A DNA stretch of 22,931 nucleotides from Pedosphaera sp. (GTDB taxonomy: Bacteria; Verrucomicrobiota; Verrucomicrobiia; Limisphaerales; SIBH01): positions 1-22,931 of the forward strand of contig JANOQV010000021.1 in the NCBI GenBank assembly GCA_031414955.1, in the 5' to 3' direction. Below the pieces are notes generated by a model. It searched no databases. It was given only the letters and a program-made list of their open reading frames with translations, and had not been told where the DNA came from. Position 1 is the first letter of the stretch; each line of letters opens with the position of its first letter. This document shows, one piece after another, positions 4,740 through 11,258 of the stretch. The translations under genes were made by a program, and so were the position numbers.

Positions 4740-4928
4740 ATGGATACATCCAAATTCTTCATGGACGCCGCCAGCGCCTTCAATTCGGCAAAAAACCAAG
4801 GTGCAAACCGTGACCTGAGCAATCTCGCCGCTGGATTGATTGAAATGTCGGAAGGATTACGTCAGCTTGCGTTGCAGGTTCACAACATTGAGGCAAAGCT
4901 TGAACACATGGACAAATCACCCGAGTAA
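4740..4928 (+). CDS. Small hypothetical protein (62 aa, predicted helical)
   Basis: ATG ORF fills the gap, has a candidate promoter and ends 10 nt before the next gene. No family recognised. Confidence 0.5.
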   Translation: MDTSKFFMDAASAFNSAKNQGANRDLSNLAAGLIEMSEGLRQLALQVHNIEAKLEHMDKSPE

Positions 4929-4938
4929 ATTCACGCAA

Positions 4939-5838
4939 ATGTGCCGCACGGTTTTATTCCTGATTCTCAGCAGCATTCTCTGCACGATTCGTGCAGCGAC
5001 TACTACCACGATTGATGAATCGCTTGCCAAGCAGGCGATGAGTGGAGATGCCGAAGCTCAATGCCTGATGGGAACATTTTATCAAAATGGCATCGGCGTT
5101 CCGGTGAATTACGAGAAGGCTGTTGAGTGGTACAAGATGTCCGCCGCAAAGGGAAATCAAAGAGCGCAACTGTTCCTCGCCTTTGCATTTCAAAATGGTT
5201 GGGGAGTCAAGAAAGATGACGCTGTTGCCGAGCGGATAATTCTCAAGCTCGCGAATGAAGGATTCCCGTTAGGACAGAGGGCCGCAGGTACGGAATTTGT
5301 GCTGAAGTATGTCCGCGACCAACGTGCTTACCTCGAAAGACACTTTGGATGGTACGGCGGGGCAGTCCCAGGCATCGAAACCAATGCCATCGAGGCTTAC
5401 AAATGGTACTCGTTGGCGTCGGTCGCAAAACAAGAATCTGCTGACAACGAACGCCTCAAAATAGAAAACGAGATGAATCCGGAGTCGATTCAGATCGCCC
5501 AAAGACTCGCTGCTGCGTTTAAGCCGGTGCAGGCGGTTCCGCTGGATTTAATTCAACAAGAAAAGGACGAACGTGAACGGCTTGCCAAAATTGCAGCCGC
5601 TCGTGTCGTCGAACGTAACCGCATCAACGCTGAAACAACCGCACGTGTCATTGCATGGAATGAGCAGCAAGCGTCGAACGGGAACAGCTACGCTAAGTTT
5701 AATCTCGGCGTCCGCTATCTAAATGGTGATGGCATTCCGACGAATCGCATTCGTGCATTGGAACTCCTGCGCCAGTCTGCCGCGCAAACCAACACCGATG
5801 CCATCAAGCTGCTGGAAAAACTTGGAGTGCCGAAGTGA
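4939..5838 (+). CDS. Exported Sel1-like repeat protein
   Basis: Signal peptide MCRTVLFLILSSILCTIRAA. Sel1 repeats GDAEAQCLMGTFYQNGIGVPVNYEKAVEWYKMSAAKG, GNQRAQLFLAFAFQNGWGVKKD and GNSYAKFNLGVRYLNGDGIPTN; also an EAYKWYSLA motif. ATG 4939 chosen over TTG 4840. Confidence 0.85.
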   Translation: MCRTVLFLILSSILCTIRAATTTTIDESLAKQAMSGDAEAQCLMGTFYQNGIGVPVNYEKAVEWYKMSAAKGNQRAQLFLAFAFQNGWGVKKDDAVAERIILKLANEGFPLGQRAAGTEFVLKYVRDQRAYLERHFGWYGGAVPGIETNAIEAYKWYSLASVAKQESADNERLKIENEMNPESIQIAQRLAAAFKPVQAVPLDLIQQEKDERERLAKIAAARVVERNRINAETTARVIAWNEQQASNGNSYAKFNLGVRYLNGDGIPTNRIRALELLRQSAAQTNTDAIKLLEKLGVPK

Positions 5839-5987: not shown

Positions 5988-8900
5988 TCACGCTGCGTCG
6001 CCTGAAGTGCGGCTTTCAATCTGTTTCATCCTTGGCTGGCCCGCGCGCAGCACGCGCAGCGAAAAGCCACGGCCATTCTCGAACGGCTCGACGGTCGCGG
6101 TGACTTCCAGCACCGGATAACGCACCGTCGCCAATCCGTAGTTTTTGTAAGTCTGGGCGAAGAGTTCGGTCTCGACGATGCCTGTCCAGTCGGCCAGCGA
6201 GAGGAACTTCATCGGCTCGCCGGTGATTTGATGATGCGTGCGCTGCTCGACCACCAACCCGCAGGTCACGACCGTTTCGCCGACGTGCTCACCCAGTCGC
6301 GCCACCGGGCAATAGGTGTCCCACGCCACATCGGAGAAAAGCTCCAGCGGATGGCCGCTCACGGCGTAGCCGAACAATTCCGTCTCCGCTTCCAATCGCT
6401 CGCGGCGCGTTGGTTCGCGAAGAAAGTCAGAATGTTCAATGAAGAATGTTGAGGCGGGGTTACTGGTTTCGCCGAAGTTGAATTCTGCATTCATCATTCT
6501 TACTTCTCCCTTCCTCACCAACTGCGCCTGCCAGAATTGCTGGGTGCGCGTTTGACCAAATTCATCAAAGCCGCCGGCACGAATCATCACTTCCATCTCC
6601 TCGGGCGATGGCTGCACGCGCTGGTGGAAGTCGGTGAGTGAAACGAACAGAGCTCGTTCGCGTTCGGCGAGCAGACGCTTCATCGTGCGATCGGTCAGTC
6701 CCTTGGCGCGCGTCAGGGGAACGCGAATCGCGGCAGGAATTGAAACGGGTTGAATGCAGAAGGCAGCAGGTAGGGCGTCGCTGTCCTCAGCGCGCCGGGG
6801 TGAGGCGTGAACAGTTCTTGCACGCATTGCCGCAGCGTGGCCCGGCGCGGTGAGGACACCGCGCCCTACCTGCGTCCCGTCTTCCGTCGATTCTGCCTTC
6901 GGCCTTCCGCCTTCTGCCTTCACCTTGAACCCCGGCCCCGGTTCGTTGACCGACGGTGGCAGGAACTTCAACCCGAGCCGGTAGCTCTCCAGCACATAGA
7001 CCAGCGGGTCGTAGAAGCCTTTGCCGTTGCTCAGCACGGCGGCCATGAACTCCGCCGGGTGGTTGAGTTTGAGCCACGCCGATTGATATGCCTCGACGCC
7101 GTAGGCCGTGGAGTGCGCCTTGCAAAACGCGTAGCCGGCGAACCCAGTCACCAGCCTCCACACTTCCTCGATTTTCTCCGTCGTATGTCCGCGCGCGGCG
7201 GCGGACGCGATGAACTCCTGGTGAATCTCCGCAATGGTCGCGCGCTTCTGCTTATTCAACGCGCGGCGCAACACATCCGCACGTCCCGGCGGCAGGCCCG
7301 CGAAAGCCTCGCAGATTTGCAGGATGTGTTCCTCATAAACCACCAGCCCGAACGTGTCGTTTAACACCGGCTCCAGCGACGAATGCGGATAGGTGATGGG
7401 TTCAAGCCCCTGATAGCGCCGGGTGAAGGCGAGCTTTTTGCCTTCGTTGGCCGCACCCGGACGGATGACGCTGACGATGGCGATGAGCGTGTCTATGTCG
7501 CGCACGTGGCACTGCCGGCACAAGCCGGTCATGGCCGGGCTTTCGATGTGATGCACCGCGCGTCCGCCGCCGCTGGAGATCATGTCCCAGATTTGCGGGT
7601 CGTCGAAGGCGGAGTTGCTGGAGGGAAAATTGGAATGACGAACGTCGGGTTTCGTCATTCGGCCTTCGTCATTCGTCATTTGTTTCACGTCGCGCATCAC
7701 CGCCAGCCCGCCTTGCGCCAGCACGTCCAGCTTCACCAGGCCGATGGCTTCTACGGCGTCCATGTCGTAATGCGTCGTGACGTAGCCTTTGTGGGCGATG
7801 AACGTCGTCGTCAGTTCGAGCATCGGCTGGCGCGAGAGCACTACGCCGCACGGGTGCATCTTCGGGTAACGCGGGAAGCCATCGAGAAATTCACCCATGT
7901 CGAGTGCGGTCTTGAACGGCTCCTCGTCCAGCGGCAGGTCGCGGTTCTCCGGGCTGGCGAGGAGCAGTTCGCGCAGGCCCGCGCCGCCCATCGGGGCTGG
8001 CTGATCCGGCACCCAACCGTCGCCGAAGCCCCACGGAAAATGTTCGGTGAAGCGCCGCACTTCGCGCTCGGCCACGCCCAGCACCTTGGCCACTTCGGCG
8101 AAGGCGCTGCGCGCCTGGAAGGTCGAGAAGCCACCGACCACGGCGCAATGCGCGCGGCCATAGCGGGCGAAGATGAGGTTCACCACGTCGTCCTTCCGGT
8201 CGTGCGGGAAGTCGATGTCGATGTCGGGCAGTTTGTTCAGTGCCATGCGCTCCTCGTTCAGGAAGCGGCGGAAGTAGAGGCCGAAGCGCACCGGGCACAC
8301 GTCCGAGATGCCGAGGCAATAGCACACCAGCGAATCCGCCGCGCTGCCGCGCGTGATCCACTCGATGCCGTGCGCGCGGCAGTCCTGGAGGATGTTCCAC
8401 ACGACAAGGAAGTATTCCTCATAGCCGACGGCGCTGATGATGCGCAGCTCCTGTTCAATCTGCGATTTGCGATCGGCGATTTGAGATTCGGGATAGCGCC
8501 GCCGTGCGCCATCCATCACCAGCTTGTGCAGGAACTCGTGCGCCGTGGAACCATCCGGCGGCACGAAAGGCGGGAACTGCGGTTTGCCAAAAGGCATTTC
8601 AAACTGGCAGCGCGCGGCGATTTCGATGGAGTGCGCAATCCACTCGGGATGTTCCCGGCACGCCTCAGACATGGCCTGCGGCGGGCGAAAGTGAAAGCGC
8701 CCGTGGCGATCCTTCTCCGGATGCTCTTCGCGCAGCAGTGTCAGCGTGCGGATGGATTGCACGATGTCATACTTCGCCCGGTCGCCGGGCGTGGCGTAAC
8801 GAATCGACGGACAGGCCACGACGGGGAAACGGCCCGCCGCGTTTTGCTTCGCCGCCAATTGGTAGAAGCGGCCGGGGAACAGCTCGGCGAGGCGCGGGTC

Positions 8901-10544
8901 GGTGCTCACGGCGAGGAGGCCGTCGAGGAATGACGAATGAAGAATGAAGAATGAAGAAGTGAGAGGGGCCCGCTGCTGCGCGGCCACGCTGGCTTCTTCA
9001 TTCTGCCTTCCGCCTTCTGCCTTCATCGAAAGCAGCCGGTTCAAGTTCTGATAGCCGCGCACGGACTCCACATAGAGCAGCAGCGGGTGATTCTCCACGC
9101 GCAGTTCGGTTCCGAAAATCGGCTTGAGTCCCGCCTGTTTCGCCGCCAGTGCGAACTCCACCGCGCCGTGCAGATTGCCCGTGTCCGTCAACGCCACGGC
9201 GGACAGGCCGTGCTGCTTCGCCAGATTCACGATGGCCGTGGGCGACAGCGTGGAATCGAGAAACGTGTAGTAGCTGCGCACGCGCAGAGGAACGTAGGCC
9301 AGGGCCGCAGGACGAATGCAGAATGAAGAAACATTGGCGCGCGGACACGCCGGTTTCACTTCTGCGTTCTTCCTTCTGCCTTCCGGCTTCAACACAAAGT
9401 CGTGTCCGCGCCGCACCACCGACCAGCCCTTCGCGCGGCGCAGTGCGTCCAGCGCCACGGCCAGCCGTGCGCGCGCGGCGTGGTTCTTCGCCTCATTAAG
9501 CAGCGGCAGTTCCTGGAGGAAGACGCCGTGGTAAACATTGGAGAGCTTGAGCGACACCATGCGCAGGCTCACGCGGCGCTGCCACGCTTCGCGCAACATC
9601 ACGCGCAGCCGCCCATACACGTCCGTCTCCAGGTCAGTCGGTTCGATCAGGCTGGCGCTGCGCTGGTTTTCGTCGCGGTCGTTGTAGCGCACCTTCACCG
9701 AGAGCGTGCGCACGCTGCGACCTTCCTCGCGCACTTTGGCGAAAAGTTTGTCGGCCATGCGGCGCAGCGTGGCCTCGACGTATTCCTCGTCCGTCACGTC
9801 CTCGTTGAACGTCTCCTGCTGGCTGAAGGATTTTTGCGGCTCGCTCGCGGGAATCAGCGGGCGTTCATCGATGCCGTGGGCGAACTGCCGGATCAGCGGC
9901 GCCTGGCTGCCGAGCACCAGTTCCAGCAACTCCAGCGGCGTGGCCGCGATGTGCGCAATGTCCGCCAGACCCGCCGCGTTCAAGCGCAGGCTCGTTTTCG
10001 GCCCGATGCCCGGCAGCCACCGATTGGGCAGCGGATGCAGAAATTGCTTCTCCTGGCCCGCCGGCACTTCCTGAAACGCCGCCGGCTTGCTTAGCTTCGA
10101 GGCAATCTGGCTGATGAGTTTGTTCGTCCCGATGCCTTCACTCACGGTGATCTTCAGCGACTGCTGAATGGCCCGGCGCACAATGAGCGCGATTTCGTGC
10201 GCCGGCTTTTGGTGATTGGCCGTCAGGTCGAAGTAGCCTTCATCAATCGAGGTCTGCTCCACGTCTGGCGTGAAGTCGTAGGCGTAGCCGAACATCCAGT
10301 GGGAGAACTGCTCGTAGCGTTCGTAATCACCAGGCAATACGATGAGCTTCGGGCAAAGCTTCCGCGCCCGCGCCGTGGGCATGGGCGTGTAGATGCCGAA
10401 ACGCCGCGCTTCGTAGGAAGCCGAGGCGATGATGCCGCGGCTCTCGCCCCCGACCGCGATGGGCTGGCCGCGCAGGCGGGAGTCCGCCGCCTGCTCCACC
10501 GAGGCGAAGAAGGCGTCGGCATCGAGATGAACAATCGAGCGCAT
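5988..10544 (-). CDS. Fusion of Y-family DNA polymerase (DinB/Pol IV-like) and error-prone DNA polymerase III alpha (DnaE2-like)
   Basis: N-terminal ~385 aa: HLDADAFFASVE, ASYEARRFGI, TSIDEGYFD, GIGTNKLISQIASKLSKP, LPGIGPKT and a little-finger domain. From ~9296: PHP start YVPLRVRSYYTFLDS, TRGSAADSLVCYCLGI, PDIDIDF, HPCGVVL, GLVKLDVL, FAGYAFCKAHSTAY and a C-terminal OB fold. One uninterrupted frame. Confidence 0.92.
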   Translation of the reverse strand: MRSIVHLDADAFFASVEQAADSRLRGQPIAVGGESRGIIASASYEARRFGIYTPMPTARARKLCPKLIVLPGDYERYEQFSHWMFGYAYDFTPDVEQTSIDEGYFDLTANHQKPAHEIALIVRRAIQQSLKITVSEGIGTNKLISQIASKLSKPAAFQEVPAGQEKQFLHPLPNRWLPGIGPKTSLRLNAAGLADIAHIAATPLELLELVLGSQAPLIRQFAHGIDERPLIPASEPQKSFSQQETFNEDVTDEEYVEATLRRMADKLFAKVREEGRSVRTLSVKVRYNDRDENQRSASLIEPTDLETDVYGRLRVMLREAWQRRVSLRMVSLKLSNVYHGVFLQELPLLNEAKNHAARARLAVALDALRRAKGWSVVRRGHDFVLKPEGRRKNAEVKPACPRANVSSFCIRPAALAYVPLRVRSYYTFLDSTLSPTAIVNLAKQHGLSAVALTDTGNLHGAVEFALAAKQAGLKPIFGTELRVENHPLLLYVESVRGYQNLNRLLSMKAEGGRQNEEASVAAQQRAPLTSSFFILHSSFLDGLLAVSTDPRLAELFPGRFYQLAAKQNAAGRFPVVACPSIRYATPGDRAKYDIVQSIRTLTLLREEHPEKDRHGRFHFRPPQAMSEACREHPEWIAHSIEIAARCQFEMPFGKPQFPPFVPPDGSTAHEFLHKLVMDGARRRYPESQIADRKSQIEQELRIISAVGYEEYFLVVWNILQDCRAHGIEWITRGSAADSLVCYCLGISDVCPVRFGLYFRRFLNEERMALNKLPDIDIDFPHDRKDDVVNLIFARYGRAHCAVVGGFSTFQARSAFAEVAKVLGVAEREVRRFTEHFPWGFGDGWVPDQPAPMGGAGLRELLLASPENRDLPLDEEPFKTALDMGEFLDGFPRYPKMHPCGVVLSRQPMLELTTTFIAHKGYVTTHYDMDAVEAIGLVKLDVLAQGGLAVMRDVKQMTNDEGRMTKPDVRHSNFPSSNSAFDDPQIWDMISSGGGRAVHHIESPAMTGLCRQCHVRDIDTLIAIVSVIRPGAANEGKKLAFTRRYQGLEPITYPHSSLEPVLNDTFGLVVYEEHILQICEAFAGLPPGRADVLRRALNKQKRATIAEIHQEFIASAAARGHTTEKIEEVWRLVTGFAGYAFCKAHSTAYGVEAYQSAWLKLNHPAEFMAAVLSNGKGFYDPLVYVLESYRLGLKFLPPSVNEPGPGFKVKAEGGRPKAESTEDGTQVGRGVLTAPGHAAAMRARTVHASPRRAEDSDALPAAFCIQPVSIPAAIRVPLTRAKGLTDRTMKRLLAERERALFVSLTDFHQRVQPSPEEMEVMIRAGGFDEFGQTRTQQFWQAQLVRKGEVRMMNAEFNFGETSNPASTFFIEHSDFLREPTRRERLEAETELFGYAVSGHPLELFSDVAWDTYCPVARLGEHVGETVVTCGLVVEQRTHHQITGEPMKFLSLADWTGIVETELFAQTYKNYGLATVRYPVLEVTATVEPFENGRGFSLRVLRAGQPRMKQIESRTSGDAA
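6430..6517. repeat. In-frame inverted heptamer-repeat pair in the polymerase gene
   Basis: GAATGTT CAATGAA GAATGTT (6430-6450) and TTCTGCA TTCATCA TTCTTAC TTCTCCC TTCCTCA (6483-6517). Confidence 0.7.
6752..6925. repeat. In-frame heptamer-repeat pair enclosing a GTAG-type REP doublet (REPIN-like)
   Basis: GAATGCA GAAGGCA (6752-6765), then GCAGGTAGGGCGTCGCTGTCCTCAGCGCGCCGGG (from 6766), its inverted copy CCCGGCGCGGTGAGGACACCGCGCCCTACCTGC (6841-6873), then TTCTGCC TTCGGCC TTCCGCC TTCTGCC TTCACCT (6891-6925). Confidence 0.85.
7633..7680. repeat. In-frame inverted heptamer-repeat pair (TTCGTCA type)
   Basis: GAATGACGAA (7633-7642) pairs perfectly with TTCGTCATTC (7651-7660). Array TTCGTCA TTCGGCC TTCGTCA TTCGTCA at 7651-7678. 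Confidence 0.8.
8458..8492. repeat. In-frame heptamer tandem array (ATTTGCG type)
   Basis: ATCTGCG ATTTGCG ATCGGCG ATTTGAG ATTCGGG; encodes PESQIADRKSQI on the minus strand. Confidence 0.8.
8928..9028. repeat. In-frame inverted heptamer-repeat pair (GAATGAA/TTCTGCC type)
   Basis: GAATGAC (GAATGAA)x3 GAAGTGA (8928-8962) and TTCTTCA TTCTGCC TTCCGCC TTCTGCC TTCATCG (8994-9028). Confidence 0.88.
9314..9394. repeat. Inverted heptamer-repeat pair forming the DinB-DnaE linker
   Basis: GAATGCA GAATGAA GAAACAT (9314-9334) and TTCTGCG TTCTTCC TTCTGCC TTCCGGC TTCAACA (9360-9394). Confidence 0.78.
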
Positions 10545-10593
10545 GACGGGTGCATTCTCTCAGCCTGGGTGGGACAAATACGGTCCGTGTGGA

Positions 10594-11217
10594 TTATTCC
10601 TTCGTGCGTCGAATGAGCGCCTTGAACACGCCCTGGATCATCAACTCCTGCGCCGGGATGAGGTTCGGATACTTCGGGTTCTCCGCGCGCAGATACGGTT
10701 TCCCGCTTTTCATCACGTAGGTTTTGAGCGTGCTGTCGCCGTCGATCAGCGCGGCGACGACTTGCCCGTGACGCGGCTCCGGGCCGTGTTCCAGGACCAC
10801 GACGTCGCCGTCGAGAATGTGCCGGCCGATCATCGAGTCGCCGGTGACGCGCAGCGCGAACGTGTTCCGCGTCGGCTTGAAGCCAATGCTGTCCACGTCC
10901 ACGGAAACGCAACCCTCCGCGTCCTGTTCTTTTTTCTCGGCCAAGCCGGCCGGGATGGAGCCAAACAACGGGATGTCCGCGATACGGCTGCGCAGCTTGT
11001 GCAGCGGCGAAACGATGCGATAGGAACGAGCCTTGCCTGACTCTGATTCGACAAAGCCCTTGCGCTTCAAGGCGTCGAGATGATCCGCCGCCGCGCGCGA
11101 ACTCTGGAAGCCGAAGCGCGCCGCGATTTCGCGCAGGGTAGGGGAGGGGCTGCCGCCGTGTTGCGTGGTGCGGATGAATTCCAAGACCTGCCGCTGCCTT
11201 TGGGTTAACTCGTTCAT
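10594..11217 (-). CDS. lexA: LexA repressor
   Basis: LTQRQRQVLEFI...PTLREIAARFGFQSSRAAADHLDALKRKG winged HTH, Ala-Gly cleavage site (IPAG), catalytic Ser (VTGDSM) and Lys (TLKT). Confidence 0.96.
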   Translation of the reverse strand: MNELTQRQRQVLEFIRTTQHGGSPSPTLREIAARFGFQSSRAAADHLDALKRKGFVESESGKARSYRIVSPLHKLRSRIADIPLFGSIPAGLAEKKEQDAEGCVSVDVDSIGFKPTRNTFALRVTGDSMIGRHILDGDVVVLEHGPEPRHGQVVAALIDGDSTLKTYVMKSGKPYLRAENPKYPNLIPAQELMIQGVFKALIRRTKE

Positions 11218-11219
11218 AG

Positions 11220-11237
11220 ACTACTCAAGTGAGTAGT
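11220..11237. promoter_or_regulatory. Perfect palindrome, candidate LexA operator
   Basis: ACTACTCA-AG-TGAGTAGT, 2 nt upstream of the lexA ATG, overlapping the expected -10 region. Confidence 0.75.
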
Positions 11238-11258
11238 AGTCGCCACCGCGGTTGTCAA
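11230..11258 (-). promoter_or_regulatory. Putative lexA promoter
   Basis: Consensus -35 TTGACA (11258-11253, minus strand). 17 nt downstream is TACTCA, a weak -10 lying inside the palindrome. Confidence 0.55.

What the first reader, a model, noticed from the sequence alone, without database searches (positions are those of the whole stretch)
5988..11258. Two-gene SOS mutagenesis cassette: lexA plus a single-chain Y-family/C-family dual polymerase
Seen: lexA is followed 49 nt later by one 1518-aa ORF joining a DinB-like polymerase to a DnaE2-like alpha subunit. Both sets of catalytic acids are intact (HLDADAFF and SIDE; PDIDIDF and KLD). No imuA or separate imuB gene is in the window. Known: in the canonical lexA-imuA-imuB-dnaE2 mutasome, ImuB is a separate, catalytically dead Y-family scaffold. 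Inference: this is a self-contained translesion machine with two potentially active sites on one chain (for example lesion inserter plus extender). I cannot tell how widely this fusion has already been reported.
Basis: partly seen in the sequence, partly recalled or inferred. Interest (0 to 1): 0.85.

Follow-up and report, generated by a model that had tools for sequence, protein, structure and literature searches.

The report
Two-polymerase fusion with private LexA switch
This is a real, widely conserved bacterial gene that joins two different damage-bypass DNA polymerases, both with intact active-site residues, into one protein, and it sits behind its own DNA-damage repressor whose binding sequence changes from copy to copy in step with the repressor's DNA-reading helix.

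Summary
Observation confirmed. lexA (10594-11217, minus strand) precedes one 1518-aa ORF joining a Y-family polymerase to a DnaE2-like subunit. The fusion is not an assembly error. It is one ORF in 41 of 57 GTDB loci, 0 of 57 split cleanly, and cultured Prosthecobacter carry it. Both catalytic triads are invariant in 44 of 44 copies and equally constrained (dN/dS 0.065 and 0.062). The scan noted this fusion before in four other genomes.

'Self-contained' is doubtful. A RecA-N-terminus-like motif lies between the halves, so this looks like a covalent form of the predicted DnaE2-PolY-RecA mutasome.

Added here: each cassette's LexA has a 20-bp operator directly before its start codon. In this genome the operator is unique and recA has none. 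Across relatives the operator takes 21 half-site forms that track LexA helix 3. Residue 41 predicts operator base 5 in 81 of 81 cases (19 of 19 blind; 7 of 7 independent pairs, p=0.016). A DNA-only search returned Arg41 in 46 of 46 readable lexA genes.

My paper searches found no description, but the 2016 Verrucomicrobia LexA paper was not available. No activity is shown.

The parts
11253..11258 (-). TTGACA, -35-like hexamer of the lexA promoter
   Evidence: present at the same place upstream of nearly all cassette lexA genes listed
11219..11238 (-). 20-bp palindromic putative LexA operator (half-site ACTACTC, 4-nt centre), 1 nt before the lexA ATG; it must overlap the -10 region and start site, so a leaderless mRNA is inferred
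   Evidence: only site in the genome with fewer than 3 mismatches to the 16-base consensus; DNA-only search finds lexA with Arg41 behind it
10594..11217 (-). lexA, 207 aa; helix 3 SSRAAADH (39-46), Ala90-Gly91 cleavage site, Ser128 and Lys165
   Evidence: TIGR00498 155 bits over cut-off 111; alignment to solved LexA; positions
5988..10544 (-). PolY-DnaE2 fusion ORF, 1518 aa
9525..10544 (-). Y-family polymerase (palm, fingers, thumb, little finger); D8, F13 steric gate, YxAR, D101/E102, K153
   Evidence: each invariant in 44 of 44; best PDB matches TTEDbh 7YLL and E. coli Pol IV; dN/dS 0.05-0.065
9498..9515 (-). degenerate beta-clamp motif (ELPLL where 7YLL has QLSFL)
   Evidence: the Gln is kept in 1 of 21 fused and 6 of 9 unfused phylum relatives shown
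9396..9488 (-). RecA-NT-like helix-Gly-strand motif ending in RGHD
   Evidence: hhalign to a 28-row RecA alignment, E 0.0015; a single-HMM search did not rank RecA (559 of 883)
9300..9389 (-). variable low-confidence linker between the halves, with a genome repeat in it
   Evidence: length varies widely; pLDDT under 50 at 389-413; repeat copies elsewhere in the genome
8580..9299 (-). PHP domain with the HxH metal ligands lost (no proofreading expected)
   Evidence: first His is Arg in 37 of 44; dN/dS 0.17
6945..8579 (-). C-family palm, thumb and fingers; catalytic aspartates in PDIDIDF and D940
   Evidence: invariant in 44 of 44; dN/dS 0.062-0.069; fold matches Pol III alpha
6735..6914 (-). 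60-aa in-frame insertion special to this copy, holding a 108-nt REP-like hairpin
   Evidence: absent from most of the 44; about 50 genomic places, -47 kcal/mol as DNA
6030..6737 (-). HhH region and OB fold; the protein ends after the OB fold, as DnaE2 does, with no SRDF-type tail (motif recalled)
   Evidence: PF01336 in relatives

Best explanation
A self-regulating damage-inducible mutasome cassette. Under normal growth the cassette's own LexA binds the operator over its promoter and silences lexA and the polymerase gene. DNA damage produces RecA filaments, LexA cleaves itself, and one protein with two working polymerase sites is made. The Y half most likely inserts a base opposite the lesion. 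The proofreading-dead DnaE2 half extends the distorted primer and fills the gap. RecA most likely docks on the RecA-NT motif between the halves and does the job that ImuA does in the canonical mutasome. The fusion arose once in Verrucomicrobiota from a translationally coupled polY-dnaE2 operon and has split again at least once. Because each LexA controls little more than its own promoter, repressor helix and operator can change together. This has produced many specificities within one cassette family. Shown: the architecture, conservation, operator uniqueness and covariation. Inferred: induction, both activities, the division of labour and RecA binding.
For: Single ORF in 41 of 57 GTDB loci, lexA upstream in 52 of 57, no clean split in 57. 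59 of 66 clade loci in 64 of 150 genomes of the order have frames of at least 1300 aa. All 120 listed best hits carry IMS and PHP. Fusions occur in P. fluviatilis and P. fusiformis. Both triads are 44 of 44; dN/dS is 0.065 (Y) and 0.062 (C palm) against 0.17 (PHP) over 15 pairs. RecA-NT match; no ImuA or ImuB-C. The fused clade has support 100 on the C tree and 94 on the Y tree; split operon L081 with an ATGA overlap is sister on the C tree, and split L080 is nested inside on both. Operator data.
Against: No biochemical, genetic or expression data. Conserved acids do not prove that both sites act in the same pathway. The RecA-NT match is weak (hhalign probability 16%), a plain HMM search missed it, and the Gly turn is shortened in the 4 Prosthecobacter, Verrucomicrobiaceae and Chthoniobacteraceae rows. 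The model (pTM 0.63, disordered linker) shows no fixed hand-off geometry. A common Lys of Y-family motif V (recalled) is Gln or Ala here. L104 and L105 stop in the linker, and several copies are frameshifted. Trees are quick searches with long branches. Only one covariation rule reaches significance on independent pairs; the rules for bases 6-7 and 8 scored 11 of 16 and 16 of 21 blind.
Confidence: 0.6

Rival explanations
1. Both halves are real polymerases but work separately, on different lesions or gaps. The fusion only fixes co-expression, stoichiometry and co-transfer; there is no hand-off between the sites.
For: Long, variable, repeat-invaded linker with low confidence. A secondary split exists (L080). 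Close Y-half relatives occur with no dnaE2 in the region fetched (L082-L097, L099-L101).
Against: The fusion is kept in 59 of 66 clade loci. RGHD is retained across the fused rows shown, and the Y half's clamp Gln is lost in 20 of 21, which suggests dependence on the partner.
Confidence: 0.22
2. One reading: a self-contained machine that needs RecA only for LexA cleavage. The RecA-NT-like segment has become an internal docking element that packs on the DnaE2 half.
For: The Gly turn is shortened in four rows, and the RGHD ending is largely specific to the fused clade. The HMM search for RecA similarity was negative.
Against: The helix-Gly-strand pattern is conserved in most rows, has dN/dS 0.089 and aligns to RecA residues in register. 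All ImuA-less systems in PMC6511836 keep the motif.
Confidence: 0.12
3. The Y half is an ImuB-like scaffold that keeps its acids for DNA or metal binding; only DnaE2 makes DNA.
For: In the canonical mutasome the Y-family partner is dead (PMC6511836). The nearest named C-half relative, on a Desulfosarcina plasmid, is paired with a PolY lacking the catalytic motifs.
Against: All Y catalytic, steric-gate and nucleotide-binding residues are invariant, 94 of 231 columns are invariant, and dN/dS equals that of the C palm.
Confidence: 0.05
4. Assembly or gene-calling artefact joining two genes.
For: The window comes from a metagenome assembly with 5.84% contamination.
Confidence: 0.01

Closest known systems
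Predicted DnaE2B-PolY-RecA mutasome of Bacteroidetes (Cellulophaga algicola type; PMC6511836, PMC12926913)
   Same: An apparently active PolY with a RecA-NT motif paired with DnaE2; no ImuA and no ImuB-C.
   Different: There the polymerases are separate genes; here one chain, in Verrucomicrobiota, behind a dedicated LexA. That system is itself only predicted. I did not test whether either half belongs to the Bacteroidetes groups.
ImuA-ImuB-DnaE2 mutasome (M. tuberculosis, Caulobacter, Pseudomonas)
   Same: LexA-linked cassette; Y-family protein with clamp and RecA-NT motifs coupled to a proofreading-dead DnaE2.
   Different: The Y half keeps its active site; no ImuA, no ImuB-C barrel; covalent link; the C half branches away from the DnaE2A references.
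DnaE2B-iPolY-RecA type (PMC12926913); example seen here: lexA-DUF72-iPolY-dnaE2 on Desulfosarcina plasmid NZ_AP021877
   Same: Best plasmid match of the C half (33%), same gene order, and DUF72 also lies near 14 cassette loci. The group label is my inference.
   Different: Its PolY lacks the catalytic motifs and is a separate gene.
LexA paralogues with diverged motifs (duplication model, PMC8565304 section 20; lexA2 cassettes of Pseudomonas and Xanthomonas, recalled)
   Same: A LexA attached to a mutagenesis cassette with its own motif; motif change linked to paralogy and regulon shrinkage.
   Different: That paper counts 17 LexA motifs across bacteria and calls them stable over broad groups. 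Here one cassette family in one order shows 21 half-site cores (13 seen at least twice, many one base apart) that map onto helix-3 residues.

Membership tests
ImuA-ImuB-DnaE2 mutasome | ImuA present | tested here: not met
   NF033429 and PF00154 find only RecA in the 95.9%-complete genome
ImuA-ImuB-DnaE2 mutasome | Catalytically dead Y-family subunit | tested here: not met
   D8, D101, E102 invariant in 44 of 44
ImuA-ImuB-DnaE2 mutasome | ImuB-C domain, fused or standalone | tested here: not met
   PF20114: 0 matches in the genome; the control rang in Caulobacter
DnaE2B-PolY-RecA module | PolY with intact active site | tested here: met
   (sequence only)
DnaE2B-PolY-RecA module | RecA-NT motif after the clamp motif | tested here: met
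   hhalign E 0.0015, best-scoring region; weak, and negative by single HMM
DnaE2B-PolY-RecA module | No ImuA or ImuB in the genome | tested here: met
   (own genome only)
DnaE2B-PolY-RecA module | C-family subunit falls in the DnaE2B clade | tested here: inconclusive
   Apart from the DnaE1 and DnaE2A references, next to the Desulfosarcina protein, but long branches, 8 references and no Bacteroidetes row
DnaE2B-PolY-RecA module | Separate subunits | tested here: not met
   one ORF
DnaE2B-PolY-RecA module | Physical binding of RecA | not tested
DnaE2 (non-replicative C family) | Second C-family copy beside DnaE1, dead PHP, ends after the OB fold | tested here: met
   DnaE1 with HxH on C54; PHP ligands lost
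LexA SOS repressor | Winged-helix DNA-binding domain, S24 peptidase, Ala-Gly site, Ser/Lys dyad | tested here: met
LexA SOS repressor | Global regulon including recA | tested here: not met
   No operator match at recA; each own-genome operator occurs only at cassette promoters. In 15 other genomes, 4 have one further 1-mismatch site, none at a repair gene that Pfam names
LexA SOS repressor | Damage induction and operator binding | not testable with these tools
   needs EMSA and RT-qPCR

The most novel reading that the evidence does not exclude
A natural single-chain polymerase with two active sites from unrelated families (Y and C) that passes the primer end from inserter to extender within one molecule under RecA control. 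It spreads as a two-gene cassette whose private LexA/operator pairs have diversified into non-cross-reacting specificities, so that co-resident cassettes are regulated independently, like phage immunity groups. The family would be a natural recognition code for LexA and a source of new SOS-box motifs.
Probability: 0.33. Interest if true: 0.85.

Novelty: new variant of a known kind. Interest (0 to 1): 0.68.

Why it matters
First, how DnaE2 mutasomes divide the work between the Y-family subunit, DnaE2 and RecA or ImuA is unresolved. A one-gene version with two mutable active sites, present in cultured Prosthecobacter, makes polymerase switching at a lesion testable with one purified protein. Second, why the LexA-binding motif is stable over whole phyla yet differs between them is a standing question (PMC8565304). 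These near-single-operator LexA/operator pairs give dozens of matched natural variants with residue-to-base rules that can be tested directly. They could also serve as orthogonal damage-inducible switches.

Tried and rejected
Complex prediction of RecA with the motif: tool not available, no verdict. Single-HMM search of the motif against the genome's ORFs: RecA ranked 559 of 883. L080 as a precursor of the fusion: rejected, it nests inside the fused clade. A second, independent fusion in G045: rejected, the PolY ORF there is 409 aa and the 1540-aa frame listed was not the PolY frame. Empty-site comparison with three same-genus genomes: no orthologous flanks, so no verdict. Expression: no RNA holder listed. 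The gap in X3 and X4 at the junction proves nothing. Phages: 0 of 1432 matching records cover 80% of the fusion. Canonical TGTTC-N4-GAACA box (recalled): 3 exact matches in the genome, none at recA. Independent-pair tests for H40, S40 and V43 had too few pairs (2-5). The counts printed came from a script error and were replaced. Paper searches that found no description of the fusion.

Full report
Observation. The window holds lexA at 10594-11217 and, 49 nt downstream, one 1518-codon ORF at 5988-10544, both on the minus strand. Pfam places IMS and IMS_C in residues 7-337, and PHP, Pol III alpha, finger and HhH domains in 420-1335. An AlphaFold2 model of residues 1-1200 (mean pLDDT 82, pTM 0.63) matches Pol III alpha and DinB-type structures, with a disordered linker at 389-413. 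One contig in each of two runs bridges the junction without differences; both runs may be the source samples.

The fusion is a conserved gene. Of 57 GTDB loci, mostly titled Verrucomicrobiota, 41 hold one Y+C ORF of at least 1340 aa that starts with motif I. lexA lies upstream in 52, and none shows two intact genes split at the junction; the rest run off contigs or are broken. In 150 other genomes of the order, 64 carry the clade (66 loci, at least 59% identity in the Y half) and 59 loci have frames of at least 1300 aa. Of the seven shorter loci, two end at contig ends, three break inside the C half, and two (L104, L105) stop in the linker. The three same-genus genomes lack the clade with this query. 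The Y half matches 1347 proteins of 834-2657 aa, and all 120 listed carry IMS and PHP. Named records include Prosthecobacter fluviatilis and P. fusiformis, annotated only as Pol III alpha or Pol IV. In an even sample of 250 genomes of the phylum only one other fusion appeared among the 150 best matches listed, so the distribution is uneven.

Both active sites look maintained. In 44 full-length copies (41 loci plus three in this genome) D8, F13, Y44, R47, D101, E102 and K153 of the Y half and the three C-family aspartates are invariant, while the PHP metal histidines are lost. Over 15 non-overlapping pairs dN/dS is 0.065 for the Y core, 0.049 for the little finger, 0.062 for the C palm and 0.17 for PHP. 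The genome has a separate DnaE1, one RecA, no ImuA, no ImuB-C and no Y-family gene other than the three fusions.

The segment between the halves. After the little finger comes a clamp-like motif that aligns with QLSFL of 7YLL but has Glu for Gln. The Gln survives in 1 of 21 fused and 6 of 9 unfused phylum relatives. Residues 353-379 then align to the N-terminal helix and strand of RecA: score 22.6, E 0.0015, against at most 14.8 for the 29 windows starting before residue 351 and 16.7 for 60 column shuffles. A plain HMM search did not detect this, and four rows have a shortened Gly turn. Timinskas and Venclovas propose that this motif binds RecA in ImuA-less systems, including an active PolY plus DnaE2 pair in Bacteroidetes (PMC6511836, passages; PMC12926913, section 19 in full). 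I therefore read the protein as a covalent form of that predicted complex.

Origin. On quick trees the fused proteins form one clade (support 100 for the C half; 94 for the Y half). L081, a split operon whose polY stop overlaps an ATG (ATGA), is sister on the C tree. L080, split in the same way, is nested inside on both trees and is a secondary fission. The next C-half relative is a lexA-DUF72-inactive PolY-dnaE2 operon on a Desulfosarcina plasmid, on a long branch. Placement in DnaE2B is not established. Two further cassettes in this assembly lie in related islands with tyrosine integrases beside tRNA-Gly and tRNA-Cys. They are 92% identical, and at 5.84% contamination one may come from a second strain.

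Regulation. Each cassette lexA is preceded by TTGACA and a 20-bp palindrome that usually ends within a few bases of the start codon. The window's operator is the only site in 6.5 Mb with fewer than three mismatches. The C102/C143 operator occurs only at those two promoters, and recA has no match. In 15 other genomes, chosen for their operator type, 11 have no second site within one mismatch and 4 have one, none at a repair gene that Pfam names; 2-mismatch counts are mostly near the reversed-pattern control. These LexAs appear to control little beyond their own cassette.

The operator tracks the recognition helix. From 68 upstream regions, 59 with at least 6 of 7 paired positions were kept. The two LexA columns with the most mutual information with the operator were 40 and 41, in helix 3 (43 representatives). 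E. coli DNA contacts are listed there as Ser39, Asn41, Ala42, Glu44 and Glu45 (PMC3091678, one passage). Another paper places Asn41 at operator position 15, one base from the position that covaries here (PMC5999292, passages). I fixed rules in the notebook and tested them on 40 new regions. Seven lacked a usable lexA start, one was a duplicate and seven had low palindromy, leaving 25. Residue 41 predicted base 5 in 19 of 19 scorable cases (one, L154, is a doubtful operator pick), residue 40 predicted bases 6-7 in 11 of 16, and residue 43 predicted base 8 in 16 of 21. Over both sets, Arg/Lys41 goes with A in 42 of 42 and other residues with G in 39 of 39. On a tree built without helix 3, 7 of 7 independent pairs agree (p 0.016). 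The 62 fully palindromic operators among 84 show 21 cores. In reverse, a DNA-only scan of metagenomes for TTGACA plus the window's operator gave 68 hits: 46 with a readable lexA helix, all Arg41, 14 without lexA and 8 cut by contig ends. Residue 40 was Ser in 26, Thr in 13, Lys in 6 and Ile in 1, so that rule is loose. I did not check that the fusion follows these 46 genes. The four assemblies seen with several cassettes (own, G398, G372, and the one holding L042, L043 and L049) each show two operator types, though two of them also hold a pair of the same type.

Mechanism, graded. Shown: architecture, conservation, absence of ImuA and ImuB, operator uniqueness, covariation. From established knowledge: RecA-triggered LexA cleavage, and error-prone synthesis by DnaE2 and Y-family enzymes. 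Inferred: damage induction, activity of both sites, Y insertion followed by C extension, RecA docking, and independent control of co-resident cassettes.

Literature. Nine searches aimed at the fusion or its regulation found no description. The terms 'fus' and 'Verrucomicrob' gave no such passage in PMC6511836, PMC3919608 or PMC12926913. The supplement of the last was cut when stored; no DnaE2 or Y-family table rows appeared, and these could mention it. Erill et al. 2016 on Verrucomicrobia LexA and Erill et al. 2006 on the mutagenesis cassette were not held; what I say of them is recalled. Of PMC8565304 I read passages and section 20; passages of PMC11787620 were not used. The scan's earlier notes report the same fusion in four other genomes; a word look-up for the operator covariation returned nothing.

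Verdict. Real, conserved and apparently undescribed: a new variant of a known kind, since the unfused module has been predicted. The private, diversifying LexA switch is the part added here. Interest 0.68.

Noticed in passing
G000 C102:37335-42317 and C143:7555-12555: Two more intact lexA-fusion cassettes in related islands with tyrosine integrases beside tRNA-Gly and tRNA-Cys, carrying DUF72 and nickel/cobalt or arsenic transport genes; they share an operator type different from the window's.
   Followed up: partly
window 6766-6873; also 7610-7690, 8455-8500, 8925-9035, 9300-9390: Genome-wide repeats sit in frame inside the polymerase gene: a REP-like hairpin with about 50 genomic places, and short heptamer-type repeats in loops.
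   Followed up: partly
window 6420-6520: The region of the C half that reads QGWLL (clamp-motif-like) in many relatives reads NLEFDF or NAEFNF in the window's subclade.
   Followed up: no
L200:1460-1520 (G319): A one-mismatch copy of that genome's cassette operator, behind a TGGACA hexamer, lies just after a tyrosine integrase gene and before a short ORF at the contig end; a possible second target.
   Followed up: partly
L108, L115 (lexA upstream regions): Tandem overlapping TGTTC/GAACA-type operators upstream of lexA, resembling the tandem-site model recalled from Erill et al. 2016.
   Followed up: no
L006, L010, L041, L056, L040: Extra genes inserted between lexA and the fusion: a small conserved ORF (L006, L010), other small ORFs (L041, L056), and a 3.8-kb block with a 1036-aa ORF (L040).
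   Followed up: no
G000 C54:24344-28255 and C122:11502-13043: DnaE1 runs off the end of C54, and a similar but not identical C-terminal part lies on C122, pointing to a second strain in the assembly.
   Followed up: partly
window 4840-5838: A low-GC (about 51%) Sel1-repeat gene faces the 3' end of the fusion gene, unlike the 62% GC surroundings; probably a separate acquisition.
   Followed up: no
G000 C12 (L058): The recA promoter has no match to any operator tested, and the only LexA genes found are the three cassette copies, so this organism may lack a global SOS regulon.
   Followed up: partly
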